A DNA stretch of 64,000 nucleotides, from contig OX597839.1 in the NCBI GenBank assembly GCA_951406725.2, positions 3,534,001-3,598,000 on the forward strand, given 5' to 3'. A program made the position numbers and the translations under genes. This stretch comes from Octopus vulgaris (Eukaryota). Below are positions 229-62,654 of the stretch, in pieces. Each line of letters begins with the position of its first letter. Position 1 is the stretch's first letter. The notes under the pieces were generated by a model. The model did no database searches, was not told the origin of the DNA, and was given only the letters and a program-made list of their open reading frames with translations.

Positions 229-649
229 CATGATACACTGGACATATTTCCCTGGATGTCCATGCGTCATATACGATACACATTTCCAGTTTTTATCTTC
301 AAAAACCAGTGTAACTTTGGACTTATCAAAGGAAAGCTTTATATTTCTCAGAACGTATGAAACAAGGGCTAACTAAGTCTGAAAATAAGAATGGGAAGAC
401 TTAGGAAAATGCTCTGGACAGGCAAAGGATTGAAAATATTATTCACCCACGACATTAGGTGAATAATGCACACACACGCAATCACACTCACACACAGAAA
501 CACACTCACAAACACACAAACACACTTATACACACACATATTCACACACACATTGGCTTGATATCATTGTTGTCATCCTGCTTTTAAAAGATATGCGTTT
601 CAAAAGTTAGTGCGTAGTTTCAAATTCCATGGAAGACAGATAATAATTT

Positions 650-1197
650 ATTTTCTATTCTAGGCACAAGGCTCGAAATTTTAGGAGAGCGGGGTCCAGT
701 CGATTAGACTGACACCAGTACGCAACTGCTACTTAATTTATCGGCCCTGAAAGGATGAAAGTCAAAGTGGACCTCGGCGGAATTTGAACTCTGAACGTAA
801 CGGCAGATGAAATACCGCTAAGCATTTCGCCCGGCGTGCTAACATTTCTCATTTCTTTATTGCCCACAAGGGGCTAAACATAGGTGGGAAAAACAAGGAC
901 AGGCAAAGGAATTAAGTCAATTACATCAATCCCAGTGCGTAACTGTTACTTAATTTATTGACCCCGAAAGGATGAAAGGCAAAGTCGACCTCGGCGATAT
1001 TTGAACTCAGAACGTAGCGGCAGATGAAATACCTATTTCTTTACTACCTACAAGGGGCTAAACACAGAGGGGACAAACAAGGACAGACAAACGGATTAAG
1101 TCGATTACATCGACTCCAGTGCGTAACTGATACTTAATTTATCGACCCCGAAGAGATGAAAGGCAAAGTCGACCTCGGCGGAATTTGAACTCAGAAC
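650..1197 (-). mobile_element. Multimeric Meta-domain-like SINE (family C)
   Basis: GCCTTTCATCCTTTCGGGGTCGATAAATTAAGTACCAG core; further copies near 6040-6395, 10145-10547, 14700-14930, 20860-21552, 27800-28012, 32240-32590, 35540-35772. Confidence 0.8.
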
Positions 1198-1657
1198 TGC
1201 CAGTTCCCTTGTCGTTTGACGAGAATTTTCGTGCAAAATTTGGCTTAATCGCTCTTCATCAGACTCAACTGGACGGCCAGAACGAAGTGCGTCTTCGAGG
1301 TCAAAATTTCCATTTTTGAACGAGCGGTTCTTTCAGCTATGGCACCCTCTCCATACACAGCACAAATGTCGCGAGCAGCTTTTGCGGCCTTAGAAAATTG
1401 ATTAAAAGCAAAAAGGAGGTGTCGAAAATACTCGTTTTTCTTAAATTGACATACCAATTTAATGATCTGAAAATAAACACAAATTAACAAAAATTAACTA
1501 GAAAAAAAAATCATAAAAACAAAATAGATTCCAAAATGATTCAAAAATAGAATTCTCGATAAAATTAGATAAAACGAACAATTAGATTCCAAAATTTACG
1601 AACAATAAATTCCAAAATTTAAAAAAACGGCGGGTGTCTTAGTTGCCAACCCAGTAT
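1198..1657 (-). mobile_element. Mariner transposon 5' remnant
   Basis: EYFRHLLFAFNQ..KAAKAARDICAVYGEGAIAERTA..FKNGNFDLEDA.RSGRP HTH; end abuts TA. Confidence 0.85.
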
Positions 1658-6020: not shown

Positions 6021-6617
6021 TGGCTACACCACATTATATGGTTTCAGAATCGATTACATCGACCCCAGTGCTCAACTGGAACTTATTTTATCAATCCTGA
6101 AAGGATGAAAGGCAAAGTTGACCTCGGCAGAATTTGAACTCCAAACGCAATGACAGATGTAATACTGCTAAACATTTTGCCCGGTGCGCTGTTTCTTATC
6201 TCTTTATTGCCCACAAGGGGCTAAACATAGATGGGACAAACAAGGACAGACAAAGGCATTAAGTCGATTACATCGACCCCAGTGCGTAACTGATACTTAA
6301 TTTATCGATCCCGAAAGGATGAAAGGCAAAATCGGCCTCGGCGGAATTTGAACTCAGAACGTAGCGGCAGACGAAATACCTATTTCTTTACTACTACTAG
6401 ATAGATAGACAGACAGATAGACAGAGGCAGATATTTGTGTGTGTGTATGCACACATTTTAAATCAGTATAATATATACACAGTAGCAACATGTAGTCAAG
6501 TAGTTTAACATACATTCACAGATATACACAATGTACACAACATACATTATATACAGTTTATGCACGTGATGTGGACTATATATATAGAAACCTGTCATAT
6601 ATATATGTGTGTTTGTG

Positions 6618-7697: not shown

Positions 7698-8270
7698 GCT
7701 GATTGGACTGGAGCAACATGGAATGAAGTGTTTTGCTCAAGAACACAATGCACCGCCCAGTCCAGGAATTGAAACCACAATCTAGAAGTCATGGGTGCAA
7801 CATCCTAACCATTAGCTGAGTGGACTGGAGCAACATGGAATGAAGTGTTTTGCTCAAGAACACAATGCACCGCCCGTCCAGGAATTGAAACCACAATCTA
7901 GAAGTCATGAGTGCAACATTCTAAACATTAGCTGAGTGGACTGGGGCAACATGGAAATGAAGTGTTTTGCTCAAGAACACAATGTACGGCCCAGTCCAGG
8001 AATTGAAACCACAATCTAGAAGTCATGAGTGCAACATCCTAAACATTAGCTGAGTGGACTGGAGCAACATGGAATGAAGTGTTTTGCTCAAGAACACAAT
8101 GCACCGCCCAGTCCAGGAATTGAAACCACAATCTAGAAGTCATGAGTGCAACATCCTAACCATTAGCTGAGTGGACTGGAGCAACATGAAATGAAGTGTC
8201 TTGCACTGTCCAGTCCAGGAATTGAAACCATAATCTTGCGAACATGAGTACAACACCATAATCACTAGGC
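7698..8270 (-). repeat. Tandem array, 5 x ~117 bp, of a SINE tRNA-like head (family D)
   Basis: Unit starts 7698, 7815, 7931, 8049, 8166; SINE body continues once to ~7575. Confidence 0.9.
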
Positions 8271-9780: not shown

Positions 9781-10747
9781 AGAGAGAGAGAGAGTGTGTG
9801 TGTGTGAGTGAGTGAGAGAGAGTGAGAGAGGGTAGCATTGGAGCCTCCGGCGTTCTTGGCCCCCGTACCATGTCTCATCTCAGCGCTATCGGGGCGACGA
9901 TGGCAGTCTGCAAGTACGAACCCTGTAAGTCAGAGTAGCTGTTTCAGCGCTCCCCCCTTGCCATCCTCCGGGACAATGACTTAACTATTTTGTCTGCTGG
10001 ATCTAGGGAGATGACATATGAAAATTTTTAATCGCAAATTTGATGAAAAAGCTTAATCATGTATCAAATAAAGTTCATGAATTGTGTAATATTATACACA
10101 AAGACAACTGCGCACAGATATGTATGCGTGTATTATTTAATAAACCTTTCTTTTCTACTCTAGGTCGAGGCCCGAAATTTTGGGGGAGGGAGCCAGTCGA
10201 TTAGATCGACCCCAGTGCGCAACTAGTACTTAATTTATCGACGCCGAAAGGATGAAAGACAAAATCAACCTCGGCGGGATTTGAACTCAGAACGTAAAGA
10301 CAGAAAAAATACCTAATTCTTTACTACCCACAAGGGGCTAAACACAGAGAGGACAGACAAGGACGGACAAACGGATTAAGTCGATTATATAGACCCCAGT
10401 GCGTAACTGGTACTTAATTTATCGACCCCGAAAGGATGAAAGGCAAAGTCGACCTCGGTGGAATTTGAACTCAGAACGTAACGGCAGACGAAATACCGCT
10501 AAGCATTTCGCCCGGCATGCTAACGTTTCTGCCATCTCGCCGCCTTCGTGTAGTATTTAATAATAAACTTTGATTACAGCAAATGAAAACAAGGGTCTCC
10601 ATAAATTATCTTTACAACTTCCACACTTCCGAACTTTAAACTGAAAAGGTAATTAATTTATTCCATACCTCTAAACCTGTTGTCGGAGAAAAATGTCTAA
10701 AGTGAGGATGACGGAAGTGAGATTAGTTGAAAACATATAAAATATCG

Positions 10748-13853: not shown

Positions 13854-15091
13854 TATATATATATACATATATGGAGGCGCAATGGCCCAGTGGTTAGGGC
13901 AGCGGACTCGCGGTTGTAGGATCGCGGTTTCGATTCCCAGACCGGGCGTTGTGAGTGTTTATTGAGCGAAAACACCTAAAGCTCCACGCGGCTCCCCAGC
14001 GGGGTGGCGTCATTCGAAGGCTAAAACAATGTGAAACGCATTGTGACCAGCGATGTGTAGCAGCATCTGATAGCCTGGTCGGTCACAGAAAAGATCACGG
14101 TGATATATATATACGTGATGAGAATATACTGTACTGGTGTTGGGAAAAGAATGAAATAGATTTCTTGACAGTATGAACATGTTGGCTGGAGGCGTGTCCA
14201 TAACAACGTAATCAACAAACAGGAAACATACTTTGATAAGGCAATATATTAAAGGAGTGTTGCACTTTTATCAAGGGGAAGGTCTCTGAAGAAGTACAAA
14301 GTACTGTACTTTTATTGTTGTTGTTGTTATTGTTCTTGAGATGGCGGCGGCGTCAGTGGTGGTGGTGGTGGTGGTATTTGTTACCTTACTAAGAAGTTCA
14401 ATGCTTTTTGAAAAAGGGGTTGCAGCAGTTAAACTTAGCATTCATAAGCTTTTTATCAAAAGACGGCGGCGAGTTATCAGAATGATTAGGCATGCCGGAC
14501 AAAATGCCGAACGGAATTTTTTCCGGTTTTACGCTTTGAGTTCAAAATGCCACCGAGGATCCACTTGGCTTTTCATCCTTTCGAGGGTCAATGAAATAAG
14601 AACAATCTGAGTACTGGGGTCAATGTAATTGGCTAGTTCCCTCCCATCAAAAACTGCTGGCCTTGTGCTAAAATTAGAAACATCATTTTTTCGTCAGCAG
14701 AGACGGCGAGCTAGCAGAATCGTTAGCACGCCGGGCGAAATGCTTAGCGGTATTTCGTCTGTCGTTACGTTGTAAGTTCAAATTCCGCCGAGGTCGACTT
14801 TGCCTTTCATCCTTTCGGGGTCGATAAATTAAGTACCAGTTAAACACTGGGGCCGATGTAATCGACTTAATCCGTTTGTCTCTCCTTGTTTGTCCCCTCA
14901 GTGTTTAGCCCCTTGTGGGTAGTAAAGAAATCGGTATTACCATTATATATATATAATGCATTACCTCTGGATATCTTTGTTGCTTATTTTGATTATAATC
15001 ACCCCATTTTGAATTATATGGATAATACCATACTAAATTCTGGTGCCTTCAACTTAAGTACCATATTAATCTGAATCTAAATTTTACTGAA

Positions 15092-20195: not shown

Positions 20196-21612
20196 TAGAT
20201 ATGGTGATTTTCGCTGATCAAGAGAGGTGGTCACTGTGAGGTAATTACTACGCAAACTTTGCGCCATCTGGTGGCTGTACATTTGAATTGAAAAACCTTG
20301 GATTTTCTGGTTTGTGGAATCAGTCCAAGAGGAACTTCCTCTAATGACGACAGTTCGACAATACATCTGATTTTCGTTTGAATGGTATCGTTGCTTAAAA
20401 TTTTGCCCCAAATAAACTCTAATTCAATAGAATTATGATGAAATGCATTCCGGCCAATGAGCATCTCGTCTTTTTGGATGTCGAGGACTACAAAGGCAGC
20501 AATCACAACAAAAACAACTCCAATAACAACGACAACTGCAGCAACAATAACAAGAAAAACAGCAATTAACAATAATTTCTAAAGCAATAACCTGAGACAG
20601 CGAGGAAGTTGTAACGTGCTCACTCGATCAGCTAGAAATAGCAGCGAAACTTCTCAAATCTTACTGTGTTAAGAAAGAGCGGTCCCATTATACAATATGC
20701 ACCTCCGTGCATTACGTTTGGAGAATTGACGATGTGGTCGTGTTTGGAATGTCTTTGAACATTAATCTGCTCAATCAGGCTTAACGAACTAACAACAACA
20801 AATGAACAAAGTGAAAGCTTTAACGTTAGAAATAGCAGTCAGATCTAATATTATTTAATCAACCCCGAAAGGATGAAAGGCAAAGTCGACCTCGGCGTAA
20901 TTTGAACTCAGAACGTAGCGGCAGACAAAATACCGCTAAGCATTTCGCCCGGCGTGCTAACGTTTCTGCCAGCTCGCATCCTTACAAGATCTCCCTAATC
21001 TTTTCTACTCTATGCACAAGGCCCGAAATTTTGGGGGAGGAGCTAGTCGATTAGATCAACCCCAGTATACGACTGGTACTTAATTTATCGCCATCGGTGG
21101 AATTTGAACTCAGAACGTAGCGGCAGACGAAATACCTATTTCTTTACTACCCACAAGGGGCTAAACACAGAGGGGACAAACAAGGACAGACAAATGGATT
21201 AAGTCGATTATGTCGACACCATTGACTGGTACATATTTAATCGACCCCGAAAGGATGAAAGGCAAAGTCGACCTCGGTTGAATTTGAACTCAGAACGTAA
21301 CGGCAGACGAAATACATATTTCTTTACTACCCACAAGGGGCTAAACACAGAGGCGACGAACAAAGACAGACAAACGGATTAAGTCGATTACATCGACCCC
21401 AGTGCGTAACTGGCACTTAATTTATTGACTCCGAAAGGATGAAAGGCAAAGTCGACCTCGGCGGAATTTGAACTCAGAACGTAACGGCAGACGAAATACC
21501 TACCGCCAAGCATTTCGCCCGGCGTGCTAACGTTTCTGCCAGCTCGCCGCCTTATAACAATCATAATAATAACAGCAACAACACAAACACCAATAGCAAT
21601 AACCGCACTCAC

Positions 21613-23970: not shown

Positions 23971-25600
23971 TAAGTAGAAGATGCTTGCCCAAGCTGCCAT
24001 GCAGTGGGACTGAACCCGGAACCATGTGGTTGGGAAGCGAGCTTCTTACCACACAGCCACATAGTAGAAGACGCTTGCCCAAGGTGCCATGCAGTGGGAC
24101 TGAACCCGGAACCATGTAGTTGGAAAGCGAGCTTCTTACTACACAGCCCCATAGTAGAAGATGCTTGCCCAAGGTGCCATGCAGTGGGACTGAACCCGGA
24201 ACCATGTAGTTGGAAAGCGAGCTTCTTACCACACAGCCCCATAGTAGAAGACGCTTGCCCAAGGTGCCATGCAGTGGGACTGAACCCGGAACCATGTGGT
24301 TGGAAAGCGAGCTTCTTACCACACAGCCCCATAGTAGAAGATGCTTGCCAAAGGTGCCATGCAGTGTGACTGAACCCGGAACCATGTGGTTGGAAAGTGA
24401 GCTTCTTACCACACAGCCCCATAGTAGAAGATGCTTGCCCAAGGTGCCATGCAGTGGGACTGAACCCGGAACCTTGTAGTTGGAAAGCGAGCTTCTTACC
24501 ACACAGCCACATAGTAGAAGACGCTTGCCCAAGGTGCCATGCAGTGGGACTGAACCCGGAACCATGTGGTTGGAAAGCGAGCTTCTTACCACACAGCCCC
24601 ATAGTAGAAGACGCTTGCCCAAGGTGCCATGCAGTGGGACTGAACCCGGAACCATGTGGTTGGAAAGCGAGCTTCTTACCACACAGCCACATAGTAGAAG
24701 ACGCTTGCCGATGATGCCATGCAGTGGGACTGAACCCGGAACCATGTAGTTGGAAAGCGAGCTTCTTACCACACAGCCCCATAGTAGAAGATGCTTGCCC
24801 AAGGTGCCATGCAGTGGGACTGAACCCGGAACCATGTGGTTGGAAAGCGAGCTTCTTACCACACAGCCCCATAGTAGAAGATGCTTGCCCAAGGTGCCAT
24901 GCAGTGGGACTGAACCCGGAACCATGTGGTTGGAAAGCGAGCTTCTTACCACACAGCCACATAGTAGAAGACGCTTGCCCAAGGTGCCATGCAGTGGGAC
25001 TGAACCCGGAACCATGTGGTTGGAAAGCGAGCTTCTTACCACACAGCCACATAGTAGAAGACGCTTGCCCAAGGTGCCATGCAGTGGGACTGAACCCGGA
25101 ACCATGTGGCTGGAAAGCGAGCTTCTTACCACACAGCCCCATAGTAGAAGACGCTTGCCGAAGATGCCATGCAGTGGGACTGAACCCGGAACCATGTGGT
25201 TGGGAAGCGAGCTACATACCACACAGCCACATAGTAGAAGACGTTTACCCAAGTGCCATGCAGTGTGACTGAACCCGGAACCATGTGGTTGGAAAGTGAG
25301 CTTCTTACCACACAGCCCCATAGTAGAAGACGCTTGCCCAAGGTGCCATGCAGTGGGACTGAACTCGGAACCATGTGGTTGGAAAACGAGCTTCTTACCA
25401 CACAGCCACATAGTAGAAGACGTTTACTCAAGGTGCCATGCAGTGTGACTGAACCCGGAACCATGTGGTTGGAGAGCGAGCTTCTTACCACACAGCCACA
25501 TAGTAGAAGACGCTTGTCCCAAGGTGCCATGCAGTGGGACTGAACCCGGAACCATGTGGTTGGGAAGCAAGCCTCTTAGCACACAGCCACTCCTGCGTCT
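23971..25600 (-). repeat. Tandem array, 18 x 90 bp, of the family A SINE head
   Basis: ATAGTAGAAG recurs every 90 bp; native SINE 5' end at ~25600. Confidence 0.97.
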
Positions 25601-27711: not shown

Positions 27712-28070
27712 TACGAGGTACATTCCAGAAGTTTGGGACTCATTTAGGAGGGGCAGAATTTTGGTATATCATTAATATGCATCTAAGATAACCTGCCAAC
27801 GTTTCTTATTTCTTTACTGCCCAAAAGCGACTACACACAGAGGGGACAAACAAGGACAGACAAACGGATTAAGTCGATTATATTGACCCCAGTGCGTAAC
27901 TGGTACTTATTTAAGCGGCCCCGAAAGGATAAAAGGCAAAGTCGACCTCGGCGGAATTTGAACTCAGAAGGTAACGGCAGACGAAATACTGCTAAGCATT
28001 TCGCCCGGCGTGAAATTAATAAACGTCTCTCACGAAAAAAGTCTGAAAACTTCTGGAATGTACCTTGTAT
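27712..28070. mobile_element. Mariner-type MITE carrying a family C SINE
   Basis: TIR TACGAGGTACATTCCAGAAGTTT / AAACTTCTGGAATGTACCTTGTA. Confidence 0.7.
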
Positions 28071-30834: not shown

Positions 30835-31838
30835 ATGAGGCTCCGGCAGGGGGTGATGGCGATCCCTGCTGTACTCTTTCGCCACAACTTTCTCTCACTC
30901 TTTCTTCTGTCGGCCTGCTCGTCTAGCCAGCGGGGTGGCGTCATTTGAAGCGCATTGTGACCAGCGATGTGTAGCAACATCTGATAGGGGGTGGTGGCGA
31001 TCCCTGCTGTACTTTTTCGCCACAACTTTCTCTCACTCTTTCTTCTGTCGGCCTGCTCGTCTAGCCAGCGGGGTGGCGTCATTTGAAGCGCATTGTGACC
31101 AGCGATGTGTAGCAACATCTGATAGGGGGTGGTGGCGATCCCTGCTGTACTTTTTCGCCACAACTTTCTCTCACTCTTTCTTCTGTCGGCCTGCTCGTCT
31201 AGCCAGCGGGGTGGCGTCATTTGAAGCGCATTGTGACCAGCGATGTGTAGCAACATCTGATAGGGGGTGGTGGCGATCCCTGCTGTACTTTTTCGCCACA
31301 ACTTTCTCTCACTCTTTCTTCTGTCGGCCTGCTCGTCTAGCCAGCAGGATGGCGTCATTTGAAGCGCATTGTGACCAGCGATGTATAGCAACATCTGATA
31401 GGGGGGCGATCCCTGCTGTACTTTTTCGTCACAACTTTCTCTCACTCTTTCTTCTGTCGGCCTGCTCGTCTAGCCAGCAGGATGGCGTCATTTGAAGCGC
31501 ATTGTGACCAGCGATGTGTAGCAACATCTGATAGGGGGTGGTGGCGATCCCTGCTGTACTTTTTCGTCACAACTTTCTCTCACTCTTTCTTCTTTTAGCC
31601 TGCTCGTCTAGCCAGCAGGATGGCGTCATTTGAAGCGCATTGTGACCAGCGATGTATAGCAACATCTGATAGGGGGTGGTGGCGATCCCTGCTGTACTTT
31701 TTCGCCACAACTTTCTCTCACTCTTTCTTCTGTTGGCCTGCTCGTCTAGCCAGCGGGATGGCGTCATTTGAAGCGCATTGGGACCAGCGATGTGTAGCAA
31801 CATCTGATAGCCTGGTCGGTCACGGTGATCACGGTGAT
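30835..31838 (+). repeat. Tandem array, 7 x 138 bp, of a family B SINE internal segment
   Basis: GATCCCTGCTGTAC at 30861, 30999, 31137, 31275, 31408, 31546, 31684; single tail at end. Confidence 0.95.
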
Positions 31839-33276
31839 ATACATTCATACATACATTCACACAAGCACAAACACGTATATAAACGGAGACAGAGAGAGAG
31901 AGTGGGATGAGAAGATAAAGAAATAGATATTCATATTGTCTATATGTTCATACATACACACGTTTATGCATCTAAGAAAATGATTTCGTGGATTTTTTTT
32001 TCTAGTGCTTTGATTGTGGAGGATAATCTTAATACTCTTCTGAACAGGGATTTTACCGTTGACACTTCCTGTTTGTGTGAGGACATTCTCTGTCTCCAAG
32101 TAAGTATTTACGTTTCTTATTCGGGTTCTTGTTGCACACAGGTATGATGTATGCGCCATTTGATATTTTCGTAATTTTAAGGTTTGAAACTGAATCAATA
32201 TATTGGTTTCAGATTTTGGTACAAGGCCAGCAATTTCGAAAGGAGGGATATCGACCCTCTAGTGCTCGACTGGTATTTATTTTATCGATCCCGAAAGGCT
32301 GAAAAGCAAAGTCGACCTCGGCGGAATTTCAACTCAGAACGTGAAGACAGACGTAATACCTATTTCATTTACTACCCACAAGGGGTTATACACAGAGTGG
32401 ACAAACAAGGGCAGACAAACTGATTAAGTCGATTATATCGAACCCAGTGCATAACTGGTACTTATTTAATCGACCCCGAAAGGATGAAAGGCAAAGTCGA
32501 CCTCGGCGGAATTTGAACTCAGAACGTAGCGGCAGACGAAATACCGCTAAGCGTTTTGTCCGGCGTGCTAACGATTCCGGCAGCTCGCTGGCTTGAAATT
32601 GAATGAATATATTGGTTTCGCGACCAGTAATTTCGGAGGGGGAGGTAAATCAATTACATCGGCCCCATTCCGTAATGCTCAACTGTTATTTATTTTATCG
32701 ACCCCGAAAGGATGAAAAGCAAAGTCGACTTCAGCAGAATTTGAACCCAGGACGTAATGACGGAAGAAATGCCGCTAAGCATTTTGCTCGGTGCTAACGA
32801 TTCTGCCAGCTCCGTCACCTTAAAGCGCAGGGTGATGTTATTTTCAAGAAACGCTGTTGTATTCTCGCACAGAATCATTCTCATTGATGTTTGAAAGTTT
32901 TACTTTCTTCTCAGGAGACGGAAGTTGCAGGATAGTATTATTCTCTATAGCATTCTCTGACAGGATCATTGTCATTAAATCAGTTCACGATGTCCAAGAA
33001 TTTTGTAGCCCTCTTGAGAAACGATATCATTTTCAAGGAAGAAAGTTCAATCAACATCATTTCCATCAATACTGTCAATGATGTCTGTAAATTTTATGGT
33101 AGATACTGTGGAATTCAGTCGTCATAAGAATTGATTTTGGTACTGAATAGCAAAGTGGAATTTAAACTCAGAACTACGCACCGGATTTTTTATGGATTTT
33201 TAAGTTTATGGATGTTAAAAGATTACCTTTAGCTAGTTCACACATATTCATACATACATTCATATATATATATATA

Positions 33277-35460: not shown

Positions 35461-36167
35461 AATAAACGAAGAGTCAAAATAAAGAATAAACAATTCAGCA
35501 ACGATTGGGCAATAAGTTGTATCAAATTAATGATATATCTGTTTCTTTACTACCCACAAGAGGTTAAACACAGAGAGGACAAACAAGGACAGACAAACGG
35601 ATTAAGTCAATCATATCGATCCCAGTGCGTAACTGGTACTTAATTTATCGACCCCGAAAGGATGAAAGGCAAAGTCGACTTCTGCGGAATTTGAACTCAG
35701 AACGTAACAGCAGACGAAATACCGCTACGCATTTCGCCAGGCGCGCTGACGTTTCTGCCAGCTCGCCGCCTTCATGGATATAGAAGTTGCCAGAAAAATC
35801 ATCAGTGAAGGTCCGAAAAAGCTTTTGACTCACATATATTTATGTATGTATTTATATATGATGTTTGTTCTTTCTTGAGCCACGCCTGGTTCATAAGGGC
35901 CGGTATCCCAGTTTCTTTGGCGTAAAGTTTCCCCACATGGTCGGCACGCTGGTCCGTCGCAAGAGAGCTGCAAGATGCAGGAGGAAAGAGTGAAAGAAAG
36001 TTGTGGCGAAAGAGTCAACAGAAGTTCGCCATTACCTTCTGCCAGAGCCGCGTGGAGCTCAGGCGTTTCGCTCATAAACACACACATCGCCCGGTCTGTG
36101 ATTCGAACCCGCGATCCCTCGACCGCGAGTCCGCTGCTCTAACCACTAGGCTATGTGCCTCCACATT

Positions 36168-43855: not shown

Positions 43856-46800
43856 GTACTGATCCGTGTCAGAAAATTCAACCAAAAATGTACTCTGTCT
43901 GATGATCGATAAATGTTATTTATTTAAAGCTCACAAAACATGTATTAAAGCGCTCTTAATAGTTTCATACGTTGAGAAAACTTAGACATATTCCTCAGGC
44001 GCAACCCATATATCATAACGAACTAAAGAGATTGAATATTCAATGTATTTATGGTGGGGGAGGGATAAGAATCTTAAAAAAATTTTTTGGTTCCTATCGT
44101 ATGAATTCCTGTGTGTAGAATACCAAATAAAGACAAATTTTCTGAAAATTCCAGAAAAACAAAAGTTATGTGGTGTTTAAACAAGAATTCCACCAGTTAT
44201 TTCTCAAAAATTTTCAGAATTATTGCAAATGAGCTTAAAAGCTGCACTCCGAGTGGACATTTGAGCTAGCTCCTGTAAAGGGCTGATTGGGCCTGTGGCT
44301 CAAAACTAAAGAGATCAATACTAATAAAGAATTTATTGGATACCTACCAATATGTTATTACTATAAATTCAGTTAAAATGAAAAACTTCTAAATCCACAA
44401 ATTTTGGGAGTTCTTTTAAAATTTGAATTTTCAACTGTTAGCACAACATACCCTCCTCCAAACCTGATCCCAATGCTGGATGTTTAAGAACCAGATGAAG
44501 GGCAGATTTTCAATCCTGGGTTCATCCTGATTCCAAAATGGTATAGACAGACAGACATACAGAATTTCATTTTTATTATTATAGATGTAGGCAGTGTAAT
44601 TCAACTGAAATATAATTTAACAATAGTGTTAACATATCATTCTATCAAATCTATTTTACCAGTTGTTCTTGCTGTCGGAGTGAAACAATCTACAATGTTC
44701 AACAGTATTTTTACAGTCCTCAATCTCTTTGTACTTACCTATGTTATCATCTGTGGATTTTTCAACGTTGACTTTAAGAACTGGAGCATTGACAAAAGTG
44801 AAGTAAGTTTTTCACAAAGTCTATTTTATTACTGACATACTTGCATATCAAGTTATTGCCAATCTTTTGCTGATTGCAGAATTGATAAAACATCAGACAA
44901 AAATTGCTTTATATTCATTTCAAGTTGGTTTCAAATTTTGACAGAAACCAACAACTGCAAGGGAGGCGGTAGGTCAACTACAGTGACCCGTGTTCAACTG
45001 GTACTTATTTTGAACACCTGTTGCAGTGAAGGGATGTTTAAGAACCAATGCCTATTAATATCAATTGAAAAAGAAAATGACTCTGTAGACTGTCTTGACG
45101 TTAACTTTAACCTTAAAACAGGTATTCACCAACCTTTTCAAAAACCTAACGTTAGCATTAGATATATAAATGTGAATAGTAATCATCCACATAATATATA
45201 TAACCTTAGTATGAATATCGAGAGAAGAATCAATCATCTGTCTTCAAACGAAGAAGTATTTGATAAACACAAAGATTATTGCAATAAAGCACTTGAGAAT
45301 GTAGGATATAATTATGAAATTAAGTACAATAAGAATTGCAACATCATGGCAAATTAAAAATAGGAACAAGTATCATAATAATAATTGCAGAAGAAAAATG
45401 TAGTATACCAGGAAACAATAATAACTCAGCATATGACTAAGTTCTATTATATCAGACCGACGCAAAATTGGATTAAATTAAGAATCGCAAACCGTGAATC
45501 GACATTCGGGGACCAAAACAAAATGAATAGTACAGGACTTTCAAAGAAAATATGGCATCCCAAAAAACAAAGCTAACTTCACAATCAAATGGAGCATTTT
45601 AGCACATGCCCCTTGTTACAAAATTAACAATAGATTCTGTAAATTATGCCGTGAGGAAAACTATGAAATAATGAAAAGAAAAGGGAACCTAGTTAATACG
45701 AGGAATGAAAAAGTATTTTCATGTAGACACATAGGAAGGTACCTGTCTATTAAACTAAAGTGATTTATTGATACGATTGAATGTCACCTAAACATCATTT
45801 AAAAAAAAATATATAACCATTATGTAAATTATAGACATAACATCACATATATTAAAAGCTAAATTGAACTATACAACTGAAGAATTCTAACAAATCTATA
45901 ATGCCCCAATAACTGAAATTAACTAATTGATTTATAACCAAACAAAATTACCATAATAGCTTACTTGAACCCATTAGTTTTTTTTTTTTAATATGTATAG
46001 CTATGTTTTTAAGTATGAAATATCCATAGATTGAATATCCATGTTTAAGTATGAAATACCTATAGATTTACGTATACGATCAGATCCAGTTCTGAAGGTA
46101 TATATATTTTTCTGATTGTAAATGCAGACGATCTTAACACCCAAGTTTGGGGAACCAACATATTTGTACCTGTATTTCAAAGGGCCAGCCTTGTCACACT
46201 CTGTGTCATGCTGTATCTCCCTGTGAACAACGTTAAGGGTGCCCATGTCTGTGGAGTGCTCAGCCACTTTCACGTTAATCTCACGAGCCGGCTGTTCCGT
46301 TGATTGGATCAACTGGAACCCTCGTCGTCGTAACCGACGGAGTCCCGTTGTAGTAATCTATTGCAGGTATATCTAGGGTAATGATAGTAGTTTCATGTCA
46401 TATTGCATACCTTAATCTCTTTTAGGTATCCCAGGATATATTGATGGTGGCTTTGTATAGGTTAAAACAAACCTTTTTCTCTATTTCAGGTACCCCCTGG
46501 GTACGGTGAGGGTGGGTTCATGCCTTATGGCATCTCCGGAATGTTGTCTGGTGCTGCTACATGTTTCTATGGATTTGTTGGATTTGACTGTATTGCTACC
46601 ACAGGTGAGTTACATTCGAGTCTGTTATCATTACTCGTGAGTTACATCTGAGTCTATTCTTATTACGGATGAGTTACACTTGTGTGTATTCTCATTACTG
46701 GTGAGTTATACTTGAGTTTGTTGTCATTAATAATGAGCAATACATGAGTGCAAACTCATTACTGATGAGTATCACTTCAGTGTGTAACCATTACAGGTAA

Positions 46801-49800
46801 GTTACACTTGAGTCTCTTCTTAATAGTGATGAATATACACTCGTCTGTTGTCATCACTGTTAAGTTACACTCCATCCTTTCACCTTTACTGGTGAGTTAC
46901 ACTTTAGTGTGCTGTTATTACTGGTGAGTTCACTCCAGTGTGTTATCATTACGGGTAAGTTTCACATCAATGTGTTGTCATTAATGGTGAGTTACACTCC
47001 AGTCTATTATCATTACTGGTGAGTTACACTTTTTGTCTGTTCTCATTGCTGGTCTACTCAACACATGTTTGTCGTCATAGCTGGGGAATTACACTCGAGT
47101 CTTTCATCATTGGTGGTGATATGTCATATTTCTGTGGAAGATATCAGACATGTGCTTAGCAGCTGCCCGAATGTATAATCAAAATACTACCTCCCTATAA
47201 CAATATATTATAGGCGTAGGAGTGGCTGTGTGGTAAGTAGCTTGCTTACCAACCACATGGTTCCGGGTTCAGTCCCACTGCGTGGTACCTTGGGCAAGTG
47301 TCTTCTACTATAGCCCCAGACCGATCAAAGACTTGTGAGTGGATTTCGTAGACGGAAACTTCTTGGACTTCCATCTGGATTTCTTCACAAATAATTTTGG
47401 AGCAGAGTCTGATGAACACGGTGAAGGATTTCACCAGGACATTAGTGCCATGGAGAAACGGTATCAAGACTTCTGGAATGGCAGTATGCTGGCTGACTAT
47501 TGCTGGACACTTAACTGTGATCAACCAGATCAGGAACACCGCAGGAAATTCAAAGCACAATGCTTCTAACTCCGTTGTTCTAGCCTTGTCTGTTTTGTCC
47601 GACCCATTTTTTGTGTATTCACGCTTTGTAGAATGATAGTGATGATTTTTAGTTCAATAAACTAATTTACTTTCTAAAAATAGTATGACCTTAATTATAA
47701 CGTTAATGATTTCATATATACAAATATGTAGGTATTTGCATATCTACTGAAAAACTGATATGAGGTGCATAGAAATGGGGTGAAGGCGACGAGCTGGTAG
47801 AAACGTTAGCACACCAGGCGAAATGCTTAGGAGTATTTCGTCTGCCGCTACATTCTGAGTTCAAATTCCGCCGAGGTCGACTTTGCCTTTCATCCTTTCG
47901 GGGCCGATTAAATAAGTACCAGTTACGCACTGGCGTCGATATAATCGACTTAATCCGTTTGTCTGTCCTTGTTTGTCCTCTCTGTGTTTAGCCCCTTGTG
48001 GGTAGTAAAGAAATAGGTATTTCGTCTGCCGTTACGTTCTGAGTTCAAATTCCGCCGAGGTCGACTTTGCCTTTCATCCTTTCGGGGTCGATAAATTAAG
48101 TACCAGTTGCACACTGGGGTCGATATAATCGACTTAATCCGTTTGTCTGTCCTTGTTTGTCCTCTCTGTGTTTAGCCCCTTGTGGGTAGTAAAGAAATAG
48201 GTATTTCGTCTGCCGTTACGTTCTGAGTTCAAATTCCGCCGAGGTCGACTTTGCCTTTCATCCTTTCGGGGTCGATAAATTAAGTACCAGTTGCGCACTG
48301 GGGTCGATATAATCGACTTAATCCGTTTGTCTGTCCTTGTTTGTCCTCTCTGTGTTTATCCCCTTGTGGGTAGTAAAGAAATAGGTATTTCGTCTGCCGT
48401 TACGTTCTGAGTTCAAATTCCGCCGAGGTCGACTTTGCCTTTCATCCTTTCGGGGTCGATAAATTAAGTACCAGTTACGCACTGGGGTCGATATAATCGA
48501 CTTAATCCGTTTGTCTGTCCTTGTTTGTCCTCTCTGTGTTTATCCCCTTGTGGGTAGTAAAGAAATAGGTATTTCGTCTGCCGTTACGTTCTGAGTTCAA
48601 ATTCCGCCGAGGTCGACTTTGCCTTTCATCCTTTCGGGGTCGATAAATTAAGTACCAGTTGCGCACTGGGGTCGATATAATCGACTTAATCTGTTTGTCT
48701 GTCCTTGTTTGTCCTCTCTGTGTTTATCTCCTTGTGGGTAGTAAAGAAATAGGTATTTCGTCTGCCGTTACGTTCTGAGTTCAAATTCCGCCGAGGTCGA
48801 CTTTGCCTTTCATCCTTTCGGGGTCGATAAATTAAGTACCAGTTGCGCACTGGGGTCGATATAATCGACTTAATCCGTTTGTCTGTCCTTGTTTGTCCTC
48901 TCTGTGTTTATCCCCTTGTGGGTAGTAAAGAAATAGGTATTTCGTCTGCCGTTACGTTCTGAGTTCAAATTCCGCCGAGGTCGACTTTGCCTTTCATCCT
49001 TTCGGGGTCGATAAATTAAGTACCAGTTGCGCACTGGGGTCGATATAATCGACTTAATCCGTTTGTCTGTCCTTGTTTGTCCTCTCTGTGTTTATCCCCT
49101 TGTGGGTAGTAAAGAAATAGGTATTTCGTCTGCCGTTACGTTCTGAGTTCAAATTCCGCCGAGGTCGACTTTGCCTTTCATCCTTTCGGGGGTCGATAAA
49201 TTAAGTACCAGTTGCGCACTGGGGTCGATATAATCGACTTAATCCCTTTGTCTGTCCTTGTTTGTCCTCTCTGTGTTTATCCCCTTGTGGGTAGTAAAGA
49301 AATAGGTATTTCGTCTGCCGTTACGTTCTGAGTTCAAATTCCGCCGAGGTCGACTTTGCCTTTCATCCTTTCGGGGTCGATAAATTAAGTACCAGTTGCG
49401 CACTGGGGTCGATATAATCGACTTAATCCGTTTGTCTGTCCTTGTTTGTCCTCTCTGTGTTTATCCCCTTGTGGGTAGTAAAGAAATAGGTATTTCGTCT
49501 GCCGTTACGTTCTGAGTTCAAATTCCGCCGAGGTCAACTTTGCCTTTCATCCTTTCGGGGTCGATAAATTAAGTACCAGTTGCGCACTGGGGTCGATATA
49601 ATCGACTTAATCCCTTTGTCTGTCCTTGTTTGCCCCCTCTATGCTTAGCCCCTGGTGGGTAGTAAAGAAATCAGAAATGAAGTGAAATTTTGAAATCAGT
49701 CTAAGAATTTTGAAATTAGTCTAAAAAAGTTGGTTGGCATTCATAATAAACATAATACCTTTAATCTTGTTGACCAGTATTATCAGCCAATAACTCTGAA

Positions 49801-50487
49801 GTAATTATTCCTCGTTATCGATCGTTTTAATCCGTTCCTGGTTCTCCAGTTTTGTAGGAGGAGTAATTTCCGATAGGATTAATCTGTTGCTTTGTGACTG
49901 AGTAATTTCAGCTCGTTACACAAAGTAATTGGCATGCGATCTCATTACAGTTTCTGTTGTGTTAATTATGCAATTCATTGTATTTGGTTTCTGAGACTAG
50001 CATGTTATTTTCTATTTTATCTTTTGCTTGCTTCGGTCATTGAACTATGGTCATGCTGGAGCACCACCCTGAAGAATTTTTAAGTTGAATGTATCGTACT
50101 CGACTACTATTTATTTATTTATTTATTTATTTTGTTAAGACTAGTACTTATTCTATCGGTCTCTTTTACTGAAACACTAAGTTAGAAGGACATAAACACA
50201 CCAACACCAGTTGTCAAGTGGTGGTGGAGGACAAGCATAGACTCAAAGACACACACATACACATCGTCGTCTTCGTTGTCATTTAACATCCATTGCCCAT
50301 GTTGGCATGGGTTGGATGGTTTGAGCAAAGCTGGCAAGCTGGAAGGTTGTACCAGACACTATATTATATGTGTATATAAATATATATATATATATATATA
50401 TACCCTCTTTCAACTTCGCCTATGTGATTTTGAGAAACGTTTCTACAATATATATACCAGGTGTAAACTATTCCTTTTATTATCCCT

Positions 50488-50553
<66 letters not shown>

Positions 50554-52867
50554 CGTGTGTGTGTGTATAATTTTTTTCTCATGTTGGGCTGCTGAAATTT
50601 ACAAGTTTTTTTTTCGTTCTCTTTCTGTTTATTTTCTCTTATTCCTTTCTGTTGAGGAGCCTAGGCTCGAAACATAAAAGACTTTTTCATTTTTCCCGAA
50701 CATCAAACTAATACACTTGCTTGTTGTTCATAACACCTATCTTCACCTTTTGTTTTTCCATAAATTTCAACTATATATTTCAGGCTCGTGGGGTCATCCC
50801 AGTTTGACCCTAACTGAACTTCCTGCTCTTTGGACATGTATATCTGAACCACTTCCTGAACTTTCAGCACCTCTCTTTTTATTTCTTTTAATTTTTTTTT
50901 TTTTTTATTTTTCAGGTGAAGAAGCCAAAAACCCTCAGAAAGCCATCCCCATCAGTATCATCATCAGCCTCTTCATTGTGTTCATCTTCTACTTCTTGAT
51001 ATCCCTTGTTCTGACCACGATGTCTCCTTATTATCTGCTAGATGCTAGTGCTTCTTTACCGTTTGTCTTTGAGAGAATTGGATGGAACATTGCAAAATAC
51101 GTGATCGCAATTGGCGGCATTTGTGCTCTGACTGCCAGGTAAACAGTTCTTGAAGCTCTCCATAGTCTTCATGTTCTTTGGCTTAGGAAATGGTTTTTGT
51201 ATTTTATTCAGGAATGGCTATGCGGTTAAGAAGTTTGCTTCCTGGCCACATGGTCACAGGATTGATCATACACAAACACACACACACACACACACACACA
51301 TACGTACACATACATACGCACACACACTTGCACACACACATACATACACACGTACACACACACATACATACACACGTACACACACACACACAAACACACT
51401 ACATACATATGCACACAAACAAACACATACGCATACACAAACTTACACACACACAAACACGCTCGCATACACACACATAGACATACACACATACGCACAC
51501 ACATACACATACATAGACAAGCATACACACACATGCACACATACATCTAGACACACACATACACACATACACATACGTACACACACATACGCACACACAC
51601 ACTTGCACACACACATACATACACACGTACACACACACATACACACACATACACACACATACACACACACATACACACACATACACACACATAGACAAGC
51701 ATACACACACATACATCTCATACATCTAGACACACACAAACACACATACACACACATATATATACACACACACTATCTTTGATGTACTATAACGTAATAT
51801 AGGCGGGAGTGATTTTGTTGAAATACTTCTTTGGTAAAATTGTACATCTTGGAAGACATCAAATATGGAAGCCTACTTTCTTCTCTATCTCTATCACTCT
51901 CCCGCTCTCTCTCTTAGTCTCTCTCTTACTCTCTCTCTTGCTCTCTCTCTCTCTCTCTCTCCATCTCTCTCACTCTATCGCTATATTTCTTTTACTCTCT
52001 ATCTCTTTCTCCTTTGCTGTTTTGTTCTACCCATCTCCTGTTCTCTCCCTCTCCTGCTCTCTCTCTCTCTCTTGGTCTTTATTTCTCTCTCTTGCTGTCC
52101 TGCTCTCCCCCACTTGCTCTCTATCGCTTTCTCACTCTCTCTCTCTCAGTGTCTCTAATTCTATCACTATCTCTCTTTTATTCTCTCTCTTTCTCTCTCT
52201 CTCTATCTCTCTCTCTCTCTCTTGAACTGTTTCTCTGTCTCTGTGTCTCTGTCTCCTCTCTCTCTCCGTTTCCTACTCTCTCTCCTTCTCTCCACCTCTA
52301 TCAATCACTTGCTCTCTATCTATCTATCTACCTCTCTCTCTCTCTCTTACTCTCTCTTTTCCTCTTTCTTTTCCCTCACTCTTTCTCTCCTTTCTCTTCC
52401 CCTCTCTATTTTTCTGTTTCGCTATACATACAAACACACATACACACATAAATACATTTATTCACCGCTATGATCGAAGATATTCCAATGATGACCACCA
52501 CCACCACAACCACTATAATATTTTATATCCCCACCAACCTCTTTATATATTTCAGCATGGTAGGTTCAATATTCCCCTTACCCAGGGTTGTGTATGCAAT
52601 GGCTGAGGACCGCATAATCTTTGGTAATCTTTCTAAAGTATCAGACAGGTTCAAGACCCCTGTCCTGGCAACGTTGGTCGCTGGACTCTTTGCAGGTCAT
52701 TCAACTTCTACTATATTTATTTATTTATTTATTTGTCTGTCTCCCTGTCTGCCTGTCTGTCAGTCTCTCATTCTGTCTGTCTGTTTCTCAGTCTGTCTGT
52801 CCAATTGTCCACCTGTCTGTTTGTATATCTGTTTGTCTGTCTGTCTATCTGCTTATAGTGTTGTATG

Positions 52868-60115: not shown

Positions 60116-60186
<71 letters not shown>

Positions 60187-60397
60187 GGTGGTGAGCTGGC
60201 AGAATTGTTAGCATGCTGGGTGAAATGCTTCGTGGTATTTCTTCTGCCGCTACGTTCTGACTTCAAATTCCGCCGAAGTAGACTTTGTCTTTCATCCTTT
60301 CAGGGTCAATGAATCAAGTACCAGTTGCGTACTGGGTCAATCTGATTGACTGACTCACTCCACCGAAATTTCAGGCCTTGTGATCATTATAGAAAGG

Positions 60398-60444
<47 letters not shown>

Positions 60445-62654
60445 TATTATTAAGGTGGCAAGCTGGCAGAACTGTTAGCACATTGGGTGAAAAGCTTAGA
60501 AATATTTCATCAGCCACTATGTTCTGAGTTCAAATTCCGCCAAAGTTGACTTTGCCTTATGCCCTTATGGGGTTCGTAAATCAAGTACCAGTTAAGTACT
60601 GGGGTTAATGTGATCGACTGTCCTCCTCTCCACAAAATCCAGGCCTTGTGCCTATAGTAAAAAGGATCATCATCATCATCATTATTGTGTGAGAGAGCAG
60701 TGCATCCCATCAAAGTGACACTGGGGTAAAATTTATGAAGCCCAGTATACCCATCATGACTACCTGCCTGATAAGGGTACACCAGGCACATGCATCACAA
60801 CCATATGTAAGTGACATGGTGATCTCCTATCAAGATAAACAGCGCATGACCTTGCAGGAGGGGCCAGTTAGAATTTTCTTAAGGCCAAGCAGTTGGTGTT
60901 AAGAATGGCAACCACCATGCCAAAACAGACTGGAGCCTTATGAGACTTACTGGCTTAGAAGCTCTAGGCAAACCATCTAGCCATGCCAGGATGGCAGACA
61001 GATGCTAAATGATGATGATGATGATGATGATGATAATTCAATATTATGTGTGTGTGTGTATCATCATCATCGTTTAACGTCCGCTTTCCATTCTAGCATG
61101 GGCTGGACAATTTTGACTGAGGGCTGGCGAACTAGATGGCTGCACCAGGTTCCAATCTTGATCTGGCAGAGTTTCTACAGCTGGATGCCCTTCCTACTGC
61201 CAACCACTCCGAGAGTGTAGTGGGTACTTTTTACGTGCCACCGGCACGAGGGCCAGTCAGGCGGTACTGGCAATGACCTCGCTCGAATCTTTTTACACGT
61301 GCCACCGGCACAGGTGCCAGTAAGGCAACGTTGGTAACAATCACGCTCGAATGGTGCCTTTTTACTTGTATATATAAAAATTACACACAGATTCACATAC
61401 TAACAATCATACATACATGCATACATACATATACATATATTTATATGCTTACAAACATATATGTGTGTGCGTGTGTCTGTGTACGTGTATAGATACATGA
61501 GCTTCTGCACAGTTTCCATTTGATATTTTCACTCCCAAGACATCAATCAATCAGCTCCTACATTGTATTACACTTGCTTGAAATGGTACACAATGGGAAC
61601 AAATTCAGGACTACAAGGTTACAAAGCAATAATCCCAACCACTCAGCTATGTTTCTACCCTCACTATTTCATCATCATCATCATCATCACCACCACCATC
61701 CAGTGTTCTAAATCCAGGGCTTTCTCCCTGTTAACGGAGGTGGCCAGATCTACCTCAGTGCCATAGCAACTGCCCTCAAACCATCTCTCCATCTTGCCCG
61801 GTTTTTGGCGTCCTCCCTTCTCAAGCCGACCCTCCCAATCTCCTCCTCTATCTGTCCCCTCCTTGTTTTCCTAGCTCTACCTCGCTTTTGTGGTCCATTT
61901 ACCTCAAACTCTCCTCACAACATACTCCTATCCCTCCTCAACACATACCCATACCACTACACTCCATTCACCCTTGCCAGCCATTCCACCGGTTCCTCCA
62001 AAACCCAGCATCCCCATCAAGTCCTCAGCCTCACACCACACATTCCTCTCATCATTGCTCTCTCAGTCCTTCTCAAAATTGCCATCTTTCTCCCCCTCGG
62101 ACACCATGTCTCACTTCCATACAGCATTGCACCTCTCACACAACTCCTATCCCCCCTCAACACATACCCACACCACCGCACTCCATTTGCCCTTGCCAGC
62201 CATTCCACCAATCCCTCCAGCCCCAGCATCCCCATCAAGTCCTCCTCTTATCAAACAGCTTCACCCCATACATTTCTCTCCCCATTGCTCTCTCGGTCCC
62301 TCCCAAAATTGCCAATCTCTCTCCCCCTCAGACACCATGTTTCACTCCCATCAGTATTGCAGCTCTCACACAACTCCTATAGACCCTTCCTTTCATCTTC
62401 AATGAGAACCTTTTCCCATATAACAACTCTCCACATTCCCTGAACTCCACCCAGCCAAGTCTCGCTCTTGCTGTCACAGCTGCTTCTCATCCACCACTTA
62501 CATCCACCCAAATAACAAAACCCTCAATTATTTTTCTATTTCCAGGTGCCATTAGTACCATTTCTGCCAGAACTTAGTGCTGCTGTGAACATTTATCTCA
62601 TGCTCAAGTTATCACCTTCAACATGGATACGATTTTGTGTATGGATGGTTATCG
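38852..62654 (+). CDS. Cationic amino acid transporter (CAT / SLC7A1-4 family, APC superfamily); 13 coding exons in window, 3' end outside window
   Basis: Exons 38852-38960, 39832-39951, 40875-41003, 43603-43758, 44663-44802, 46490-46604, 50916-51138, 52556-52695, 55259-55361, 57394-57453, 58073-58194, 59929-60089, 62546-62654 splice in frame (1687 nt, ~562 aa). CAT motifs [76 protein letters not shown]. Exact orthologue not assignable. Confidence 0.96.
39385..39560 (+). mobile_element. Mariner N-terminal fragment
   Basis: [20 protein letters not shown]. Confidence 0.55.
39832..39951 (+). CDS. CAT exon 2 ([41 protein letters not shown])
   Basis: Polypyrimidine-CAG acceptor, GT donor, TM1 motif. 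Confidence 0.95.
40410..40730 (+). repeat. Degenerate 20-bp minisatellite (GACAGACCTTGGCAGATGTA)
   Basis: ~16 diverged copies. Confidence 0.8.
40875..41003 (+). CDS. CAT exon 3 ([43 protein letters not shown])
   Basis: Canonical splice sites, highly conserved CAT segment. Confidence 0.97.
41899..41949 (+). ncRNA. Type I hammerhead ribozyme motif in fold-back element
   Basis: AGCTTC-CTGATGA-TTTCTTTTGAAT-GAAACAG-TTCTAGTC-CTGTA-GAAGCT; 6-bp stem I, 4-bp stem III, weak stem II. Confidence 0.6.
42440..42630 (+). mobile_element. Short PLE-derived element with hammerhead-like motif, ending in (TA)n
   Basis: GTTT-CCGACGAA-GAGC-TCC-GCTC-GAAAC-GTT-AAAC; relatives near 12350-12540 (-) and 37185-37390 (-). 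Confidence 0.55.
43603..43758 (+). CDS. CAT exon 4 (TASVARAW...[16 protein letters not shown])
   Basis: CAG/GTAAGA sites, conserved motifs. Confidence 0.95.
44663..44802 (+). CDS. CAT exon 5 ([21 protein letters not shown]...NWSIDKSE)
   Basis: CAG/GTAAGT sites, phase 1 to 0. Confidence 0.95.
45040..45760 (+). mobile_element. Penelope-like element remnant (RT C-terminus + GIY-YIG endonuclease), frameshifted
   Basis: LDVNFNL..G...P..KPN...YINVNSNHP...[13 protein letters not shown]; VVYQ...YYI..T; STGLSKKIW; IKWSIL; CKLC.EE. Confidence 0.85.
46490..46604 (+). CDS. CAT exon 6 ([38 protein letters not shown])
   Basis: TTTCAG/GTGAGT sites, TM6 motif. Confidence 0.96.
46604..47115 (+). repeat. 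Degenerate ~32-bp minisatellite (~16 copies) starting at the exon 6 donor
   Basis: Approximate consensus GGTGAGTTACACTTGAGTCTGTTATCATTACT. Confidence 0.85.
47360..47780 (+). mobile_element. DNA transposon C-terminal remnant (Chapaev-like)
   Basis: HLDFF..N.GA.SDEHGE.FHQDI..MEKRYQ..W...MLADYCWTL. Confidence 0.7.
47785..49672 (+). repeat. Tandem array, 10 x 184 bp, of family C SINE in CAT intron 6
   Basis: GTATTTCGTCTGCCG every 184 bp from 47833 to 49490; one head at 47785. Confidence 0.97.
50916..51138 (+). CDS. CAT exon 7 ([15 protein letters not shown]...ICALTA)
   Basis: Long poly-T acceptor, GT donor phase 2. Confidence 0.96.
52556..52695 (+). CDS. CAT exon 8 ([18 protein letters not shown]...[14 protein letters not shown])
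   Basis: TTCAG/GT sites, conserved motif. Confidence 0.95.
55259..55361 (+). CDS. CAT exon 9 ([34 protein letters not shown])
   Basis: TTTCAG/GTAAGT sites. Confidence 0.95.
57394..57453 (+). CDS. CAT exon 10, cytoplasmic loop ([19 protein letters not shown])
   Basis: CAG/GTAAGT, phase 2-2, completes the conserved LRY motif. Confidence 0.8.
58073..58194 (+). CDS. CAT exon 11 ([40 protein letters not shown])
   Basis: TAG/GTAAGT, phase 2 to 1, resembles the FSL..L..P...PT loop of CATs. Confidence 0.82.
58565..58845. mobile_element. PLE-derived fold-back element with half-hammerhead ends
   Basis: ~60-bp inverted arms (about 58685-58744 and 58783-58842) carrying GAAAC-(G/A)AT(T/C)-GTA-CTGC; same family near 14955-15093. 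Confidence 0.55.
59929..60089 (+). CDS. CAT exon 12 ([11 protein letters not shown]...[11 protein letters not shown])
   Basis: CAG/GTGAGC, QP....I.FK motif. Confidence 0.93.
61710..62520 (-). mobile_element. RTE-type LINE remnant with internal duplication
   Basis: [14 protein letters not shown]....[18 protein letters not shown]; VRW.GYVLR. Confidence 0.8.
62546..62654 (+). CDS. CAT exon 13 ([36 protein letters not shown])
   Basis: C-terminal AA_permease_C-type motif; donor phase 1; next exon not found in window. Confidence 0.95.

What the first reader, a model, noticed from the sequence alone, without database searches (positions are those of the whole stretch)
47785..49672. SINE decamer with a constant self-complementary junction shared by multimers at many loci
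Seen: one head followed by 10 x 184-bp near-identical units joined as ...GTAAAGAAATA|GGTATTTCG.... The same junction occurs in separate multimers near 1030, 6380, 10310, 21135, 21315 and 32360. GAAATA and TATTTC across the junction are reverse complements, so the RNA 3' end can pair at the re-entry point. Inference: multimers arise by repeated template jumping or rolling-circle reverse transcription of a (pseudo)circular SINE RNA, or from a multimeric master, rather than by random unequal crossover.
Basis: partly seen in the sequence, partly recalled or inferred. Interest (0 to 1): 0.7.

Follow-up and report, generated by a model that had tools for sequence, protein, structure and literature searches.

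The report
SINE chain seeded by self-insertion
One short jumping repeat sits in an intron as one head plus ten 184-base bodies, and the same joint recurs at other loci, likely because new copies insert at a fixed spot inside older relatives and this chain then likely grew by local DNA exchange rather than by copying round an RNA circle.

Summary
Confirmed: a 48-nt SINE head plus ten 184-bp units at 47785-49672, inside a probable 14-bp target-site duplication. The junction (J1) recurs in register at six other places in four loci. Units after a junction belong to different subfamilies; at 32180-32590 a young-type unit splits an old-type head from an old-type body. This favours recurrent insertion into family members' heads. 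The decamer is not a uniform rolling-circle product. Units 2-9 differ by 0-4 bases, and units 3-9 share an allele held by at most about 11% of the family. The two outer ends are diverged, and two inner units carry end-unit alleles, which points to local exchange. The junction hairpin is weak (-1.4 kcal/mol) and is out-competed by the head's own stem (-11.8). No ribozyme was found. Read-through multimeric source RNA probably contributes. The architecture matches SINE arrays published for a clam and for reptiles; self-targeting is the unusual part. This scan reported the same junction and idea earlier on other pieces of this genome. The partner LINE, long reads and RNA were not testable here.

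The parts
47771..47784 (+). left copy of probable target-site duplication, abutting the head
   Evidence: 12 of 14 identical to 49673-49686; 2 of 300 random window stretches scored as well
47785..47832 (+). 5' part of the tRNA-like SINE head (A-box region; box consensus recalled), present once; more diverged than the array core
   Evidence: ARAGORN finds no tRNA
47817..47842 (+). head inverted repeat (GGCGAAATGC / GTATTTCGTC); its 3' arm is the J1 re-entry site
   Evidence: in the monomer at 10313-10544 the stem is -11.8 kcal/mol, pair probability about 1
47833..48016 (+). unit 1: B-box-like stretch (47857-47869; consensus recalled), conserved core, tail A (47955-48016); all differences from unit 2 lie in the first 103 columns
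48017..49489 (+). units 2-9: homogeneous core; units 3-9 share a T at alignment column 160 (49464 in unit 9)
   Evidence: 0-4 pairwise differences; T absent from 10 of 10 dispersed units; G in 89-92% of contig depth in 4 runs
48007..48024 (+). junction J1 (first of nine in the array)
49490..49672 (+). unit 10: 5' two thirds like the core, 3' third diverged with some A'-type letters
   Evidence: 6 of its 7 own differences lie at columns 126 or later
49673..49686 (+). right copy of probable target-site duplication; begins AGAAATG, like the J2 site
640..1196 (-). trimer: 5'-truncated A unit, J1, A' unit, J2, B-tailed element; no upstream head
6045..6394 (-). 15-nt tail-A remnant, J1, A' unit, J2, old-type element; no upstream head
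10150..10544 (-). dimer: head, A unit, J1, B-tailed unit with old-type letters just after J1; 17-of-19 direct repeat around the whole
   Evidence: 0 of 300 random
14702..14940 (+). A monomer ending in GGTATT followed by non-family DNA
20990..21551 (-). trimer: head with a 4-nt duplication (GGTA) at the J1 site, A, J1, A, J1, deleted B-tailed unit
27795..28012 (-). 5'-truncated A-type monomer ending in a J2-like AGAAACGTT
32165..32590 (-). old C-type head, A unit, J1, old C-type body and tail; 25-of-27 direct repeat around the whole (its first bases overlap tail C)
   Evidence: 0 of 300 random
35535..35770 (-). A monomer ending in a degenerate J1-like stretch

Best explanation
The array is one SINE head plus ten bodies inside a probable insertion scar; chains like it are likely seeded when tail-A copies of this SINE insert at a fixed site in the head of existing relatives, and this one likely grew to ten units afterwards by local unequal exchange. 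Shown: the architecture, two fixed junctions at head positions 48 and 15, different subfamilies after the junction, and blockwise variants. Inferred: target-primed reverse transcription at GGTATTT by a partner LINE. Because donor RNA and target share the head sequence, the cDNA would anneal to the upstream target and add exactly one head-less 184-bp unit. Pol III read-through of existing dimers probably supplies some donors and a target-matching 3' end. The complementarity across J1 arises because the tail ends in the same GAAAT as the 5' arm of the head's own hairpin.
For: 8 of 11 tail-A/A' ends outside the array join a family head at one of two exact sites (6 J1, 2 J2). The other 3, and unit 10, end in DNA resembling those sites. 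The six outside J1 are followed by four unit types (A' twice, B-tailed twice, A once, C-tailed once), with old-type letters 7-17 nt after the joint at 10312 and 32359. At 32165-32590 head and last unit are both C-type around an A unit. The head letter there is A in 4 of 4 scorable C/old-type copies and G in 10 of 10 A/B-type heads, and contig loose ends link it to the GGCATTT subfamily in 4 of 4 runs. The head at 21500 has a GGTA duplication at the site. In run X10, 511 contigs carry tail A at the head site, agreement 0.92. Local growth: the allele in seven adjacent units is at most 8-11% of family depth; unit 4 shares a letter with unit 1 and unit 8 with unit 10; end-unit differences are polarised outward (Fisher p 0.018 and 0.005, breakpoints chosen after seeing the data). 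Three other repeat-derived arrays in the window show local expansion. Precedent: uniform R2 5' junctions from cDNA-target annealing (PMC3774820, passages); 3'-end annealing in SART1/R1Bm (PMC7265360, passages).
Against: No partner LINE was seen in the window; the Tx1 link comes only from untested earlier notes. Loci at 1196 and 6394 have no clear head upstream of the truncated first unit, which fits multimer retrotransposition or deletion better. At 1197 the flank resembles the head start but is also in frame in a transposase-like fragment. Unit 10's 5' part is as young as the core, which head-site insertion alone does not give. No significant target-site duplication at 6 of 9 loci tested. The chimera evidence rests on two or three loci, and the diagnostic head letter lies in a CpG. 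No empty orthologous site was available.
Confidence: 0.55

Rival explanations
1. J1 and J2 each arose once in a source copy; multimeric source loci are transcribed through and pasted whole or 5'-truncated, with tails shuffled by recombination in the shared body, and some copies then expand locally.
For: No run of four T between 47785 and 49687. Direct repeats flank whole multimers at 3 of 9 loci. The two head-less loci share the order A-J1-A'-J2. Each junction goes with its own tail variant.
Against: The unit after the junction differs between loci and switches to old-type letters within 7-17 nt of J1. The C-head/A/C-body chimera needs two recombination events at the same register.
Confidence: 0.25
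2. DNA-level only: one ancestral junction was spread by ectopic gene conversion or unequal exchange from existing multimers into old monomers, without targeted insertion.
For: In the decamer a young, consensus-like core lies between diverged outer parts, with apparent switch points inside the body, columns 104-125. Other repeats in the window also form local arrays.
Against: At 10312 and 32359 the switch sits at the junction itself, not at random in the body. Monomers in non-family DNA end in site-like letters.
Confidence: 0.12
3. One reading: the RNA 3' end pairs at the re-entry point, and reverse transcriptase jumps repeatedly or rolls round a circular RNA.
For: J1 falls in the only 5 of 200 positions that allow a 5-bp stem. 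The hairpin reaches p 0.6-0.7 in a 71-nt fragment. Units 3, 6, 7 and 9 are identical, so a rolled block of seven is not excluded.
Against: Tail pairing p 0.00 in a head-bearing monomer, 0.05 in a dimer and 0.01 in a circle, with circular fold z 0.11. No Rfam ribozyme in 47600-48500 and no CTGANGA on either strand. J2 has no stem. The ten units are not one template.
Confidence: 0.08

Closest known systems
TSD1-(SINE)n-TSD1 arrays of the blood clam Scapharca broughtonii (PMC11481361; passages and section 15 read)
   Same: First copy with full head, head-truncated repeats, one target-site duplication around the whole; 4-15 units; also in introns.
   Different: There the repeats are also tail-truncated and the authors invoke unequal recombination. 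Here each unit keeps a whole tail, two junctions recur across loci, and the last unit can be of another subfamily.
SINE-derived satellites (sSat) of squamates (PMC10702118; parts 1, 3, 4 of 5 read)
   Same: Tandem units from part of a SINE, longer terminal unit, homogeneity rising with array length, unit length 150-180 bp common.
   Different: No targeted seeding is proposed in the parts read; those arrays tend to be subtelomeric, while this one is intronic (chromosomal position unknown).
SINEU-3 and Tx1-Mar of crocodilians (PMC4494074; passages and section 14 read)
   Same: A SINE with strong target preference for a repeat, forming tandems by sequential insertion.
   Different: The target is another transposon (Mariner-N4_AMi), and tandem copies are separated by a visible duplication. 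Here the target is the SINE's own head and the extra head is absent.
R2 precise 5' junctions and R1Bm/SART1 3'-end annealing (PMC3774820 and PMC7265360; passages)
   Same: RNA carrying target sequence gives uniform junctions by annealing: the mechanism inferred here.
   Different: Autonomous LINEs targeting rDNA or telomeres; annealing was shown experimentally there, not here.
Metazoan non-LTR retrozymes (PMC7229834; abstract and outline only)
   Same: Tandem units of 170-400 nt.
   Different: Defined by a hammerhead ribozyme and circular RNAs; neither motif nor stable circular fold was found here.

Membership tests
tRNA-derived SINE | Dispersed high-copy family with common head and body | tested here: met
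   22 copies or units outside the array in 64 kb; 174,000-437,000 contigs laid per run in 4 runs
tRNA-derived SINE | tRNA-related head with A and B boxes | tested here: inconclusive
   B-box-like GAGTTCAAATTCC seen by eye (consensus recalled); no tRNA call by ARAGORN or Rfam
tRNA-derived SINE | Target-site duplication | tested here: met
   significant at 3 of 9 loci, including this array
tRNA-derived SINE | 3' tail shared with a partner LINE | not testable with these tools
   tail A matches only SINE copies in the window; no whole genome held
MetaSINE superfamily | 66-bp Meta domain after the head | tested here: not met
   core motifs not found in, and by eye unlike, the bivalve Meta sequences in PMC4824008 supplement file 2; file 1 and figure 2 not seen; superfamily left unassigned
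TSD1-(SINE)n-TSD1 / sSat arrays | One head, tandem partial units, single flanking duplication | tested here: met
TSD1-(SINE)n-TSD1 / sSat arrays | Homogenised middle units with distinct terminal units | tested here: met
TSD1-(SINE)n-TSD1 / sSat arrays | Copy number varies between orthologous loci | not testable with these tools
   no long reads offered
Retrozyme | Hammerhead ribozyme in each unit | tested here: not met
Retrozyme | Expressed circular RNA of unit length | not testable with these tools
   only contigs of a run guessed to be RNA
Tx1-mobilised target-specific SINE (SINEU-like) | Most copies sit at a fixed site of a repeat | tested here: met
   8 of 11 outside tail ends at two head sites; window only
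Tx1-mobilised target-specific SINE (SINEU-like) | A Tx1 LINE shares target and tail | not tested
   claimed in earlier scan notes; no such LINE seen in this window

The most novel reading that the evidence does not exclude
A SINE that homes into itself: its tail GAAAUA mimics the 5' arm of the head hairpin and pairs with the target's TATTTC to fix the landing base, while head homology seals the 5' end. Every insertion then adds one seamless unit and seeds a satellite, making an RNA-guided route from dispersed retroposon to tandem repeat.
Probability: 0.2. Interest if true: 0.7.

Novelty: new variant of a known kind. Interest (0 to 1): 0.4.

Why it matters
SINE-derived tandem arrays are known in clams and reptiles, but why the same unit boundaries recur is open. 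Seeding by site-preferring self-insertion would explain fixed boundaries without selection on unit length, and it is testable with orthologous empty sites. It would also mean that repeat annotation here undercounts insertion events and merges copies of different ages. The single array adds little beyond that.

Tried and rejected
Whole genome not held. The junction pattern found 0 loci in metagenome and genome contigs. A core pattern found 1 metagenome locus, L001, a repeat with the same core but a different head and no junction, and 0 in genome and viral contigs. Raw-read runs X22-X24 gave 15, 214 and 0 laid reads of 12.9 million each, so they are no test. X10 is only guessed to be RNA and is contigs, so it says nothing on circles, strand or level. 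The go-back joints only reflect body continuity of the permuted reference and were not used. Rfam gave two chance hits in the flank (E 1.4, 2.3). My recalled label 'Meta-domain' was rejected. Ten independent insertions from the general pool were rejected (allele frequency at most 0.11 in seven adjacent units). A single rolling-circle event for all ten units was rejected. An assembly artefact is unlikely but not excluded: units carry distinct variants, and run X1 holds 0.83 of 132 sampled words of 47570-50100, though it may be the source sample. Seven paper searches listed no report of this octopus-type junction; the library lacks most subscription papers, including the 1994 octopus SINE paper seen only as a citation.

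Full report
Observation. The array is real: a 48-nt head (47785-47832) and ten units of 184 bp, one of 185. The junction J1 occurs 9 times in the array and 5 times outside at up to 2 mismatches, with 0 matches in 100 shuffles; a sixth outside copy at 10312 has 3 mismatches. A 14-bp direct repeat (12 of 14) abuts the head and follows unit 10; 2 of 300 random stretches scored as well. The array lies on the sense strand between apparent exons of an amino-acid permease gene. One exon has a Pfam hit (E 1e-7, 1 of 5 stretches scanned); the exon at about 46490 is inferred from its translation. The host is probably an octopus-like animal; this rests on recall and on earlier scan notes and was not tested.

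Family anatomy. The window holds 22 further copies or units. In contigs of run X10, tail A is the consensus loose end at the head site in 511 contigs, and the listed long go-back joints are at or close to the J1 register, several with single-letter variants; 33 joints and 272 loose ends were not shown. The superfamily is unassigned: my recalled Meta label did not survive comparison with PMC4824008 supplement file 2 (file 1 could not be searched).

The hairpin. GAAATA/TATTTC is non-random: only 5 of 200 re-entry points allow a 5-bp stem. But the head has its own 10-bp stem whose 3' arm is the re-entry site, and the tail ends in the same GAAAT as the 5' arm. In a monomer that stem forms with p about 1 (-11.8 kcal/mol) and the tail cannot compete (p 0.00; duplex -2.0 against -11.1). 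The junction hairpin alone is -1.4 kcal/mol, with p 0.05 in a dimer, 0.6-0.7 in a 71-nt fragment and 0.01 in a circle, whose fold is no better than shuffles. No ribozyme was found, and J2 chains form without a stem.

How junctions form. The unit after J1 is A', A', B-tailed, B-tailed, A or C-tailed at the six outside sites, and old-type letters begin 7-17 nt after the joint at 10312 and 32359. At 32165-32590 a C-type head and C-type body and tail enclose an A unit, within a 25-of-27 direct repeat. With the A unit left out, the remainder aligns better to the neighbouring C-type copy (173 identities, 38 mismatches) than head plus A unit does (155, 50). The head at 21500 has a GGTA duplication at the site. 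This fits repeated insertion into existing heads, made seamless by donor-target homology, as proposed for R2 5' junctions (PMC3774820, passages) and for 3' annealing in SART1/R1Bm (PMC7265360, passages). I took the self-insertion idea from earlier notes and tested it only on this window. Against it: loci at 1196 and 6394 lack a clear upstream head and share the order A-J1-A'-J2; 6 of 9 loci show no significant duplication; and the array has no T4 terminator. Multimeric read-through donors are therefore likely too. No partner LINE was seen in the ORF list.

How this array reached ten. Units 2-9 differ at 0-4 sites, units 1 and 10 at 7-10 from them, and dispersed units at 11-29 from each other. 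Units 3-9 share a T absent from 10 of 10 dispersed units. G makes up 89-92% of contig depth at that site in four runs, so T is at most 8-11%; contig depth is a rough measure. Unit 1's own differences all lie in columns up to 103, and 6 of unit 10's 7 lie at 126 or later (p 0.018 and 0.005, post hoc). Unit 4 shares a letter with unit 1 (also the dispersed consensus) and unit 8 with unit 10. This is a young homogenised core in an older frame, as local exchange gives; a single circle would give ten equal units. A rolled block of seven is not strictly excluded. Arrays of 117 x 4, 90 x 18 and 138 x 7 bp, each from another dispersed repeat, show that local expansion is common here.

Comparison. The layout matches TSD1-(SINE)n-TSD1 arrays of the blood clam (PMC11481361, section 15) and squamate sSats (PMC10702118, parts 1, 3, 4). 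A limpet satellite from a Nin-SINE is a further mollusc case (PMC11121367, passages). Target-specific tandem insertion is known for SINEU-3 (PMC4494074, section 14), but into another transposon and with visible duplications. Retrozyme membership fails (PMC7229834, abstract). PMC4758252 (passages and supplement search) added nothing on this family. Seven searches listed no description of this junction; subscription papers and some supplements were out of reach.

Verdict. A real, non-random structure; a new variant of known SINE arrays; already noted by this scan on other pieces of the genome. Best model: seeding by self-insertion plus local growth (0.55). Interest 0.4.

Noticed in passing
window 23973-25590 (-): 18 tandem copies of a 90-bp head fragment of a second dispersed repeat, with mosaic variants; its junction was not seen at the other copies in the window.
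   Followed up: partly
window 7697-8204 (-): 4.3 copies of a 117-bp piece of a third repeat whose 3' part resembles the BivaCORE-SINE2 stretch seen (by eye).
   Followed up: partly
window 30848-31810 (+): 7 copies of a 138-bp unit from another dispersed repeat, with blockwise shared variants.
   Followed up: partly
window 60185-60690 (+): Two full B-tailed copies of the same SINE in tandem, each set in ATT/ATC microsatellite: a different route to tandems, with heads kept.
   Followed up: no
window 44650-52700 (+): Exons of an amino-acid permease gene around the array (Pfam AA_permease for 50897-51139; others by translation).
   Followed up: partly
window 47339-47566 (+) and 1197-1460 (-): Broken transposase-like fragments; the first has no Pfam hit, the second looks mariner-like (recalled, not scanned).
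   Followed up: no
run X23 laid on window 10313-10546: 27 reads go back 67 bases with a J1-like loose end: a short tandem built from tail A plus the start of the unit, in a run that holds very little of this family.
   Followed up: no
L001 1350-1569: A repeat with the same conserved core but a different head, in a metagenome contig: the core is shared beyond this family.
   Followed up: no
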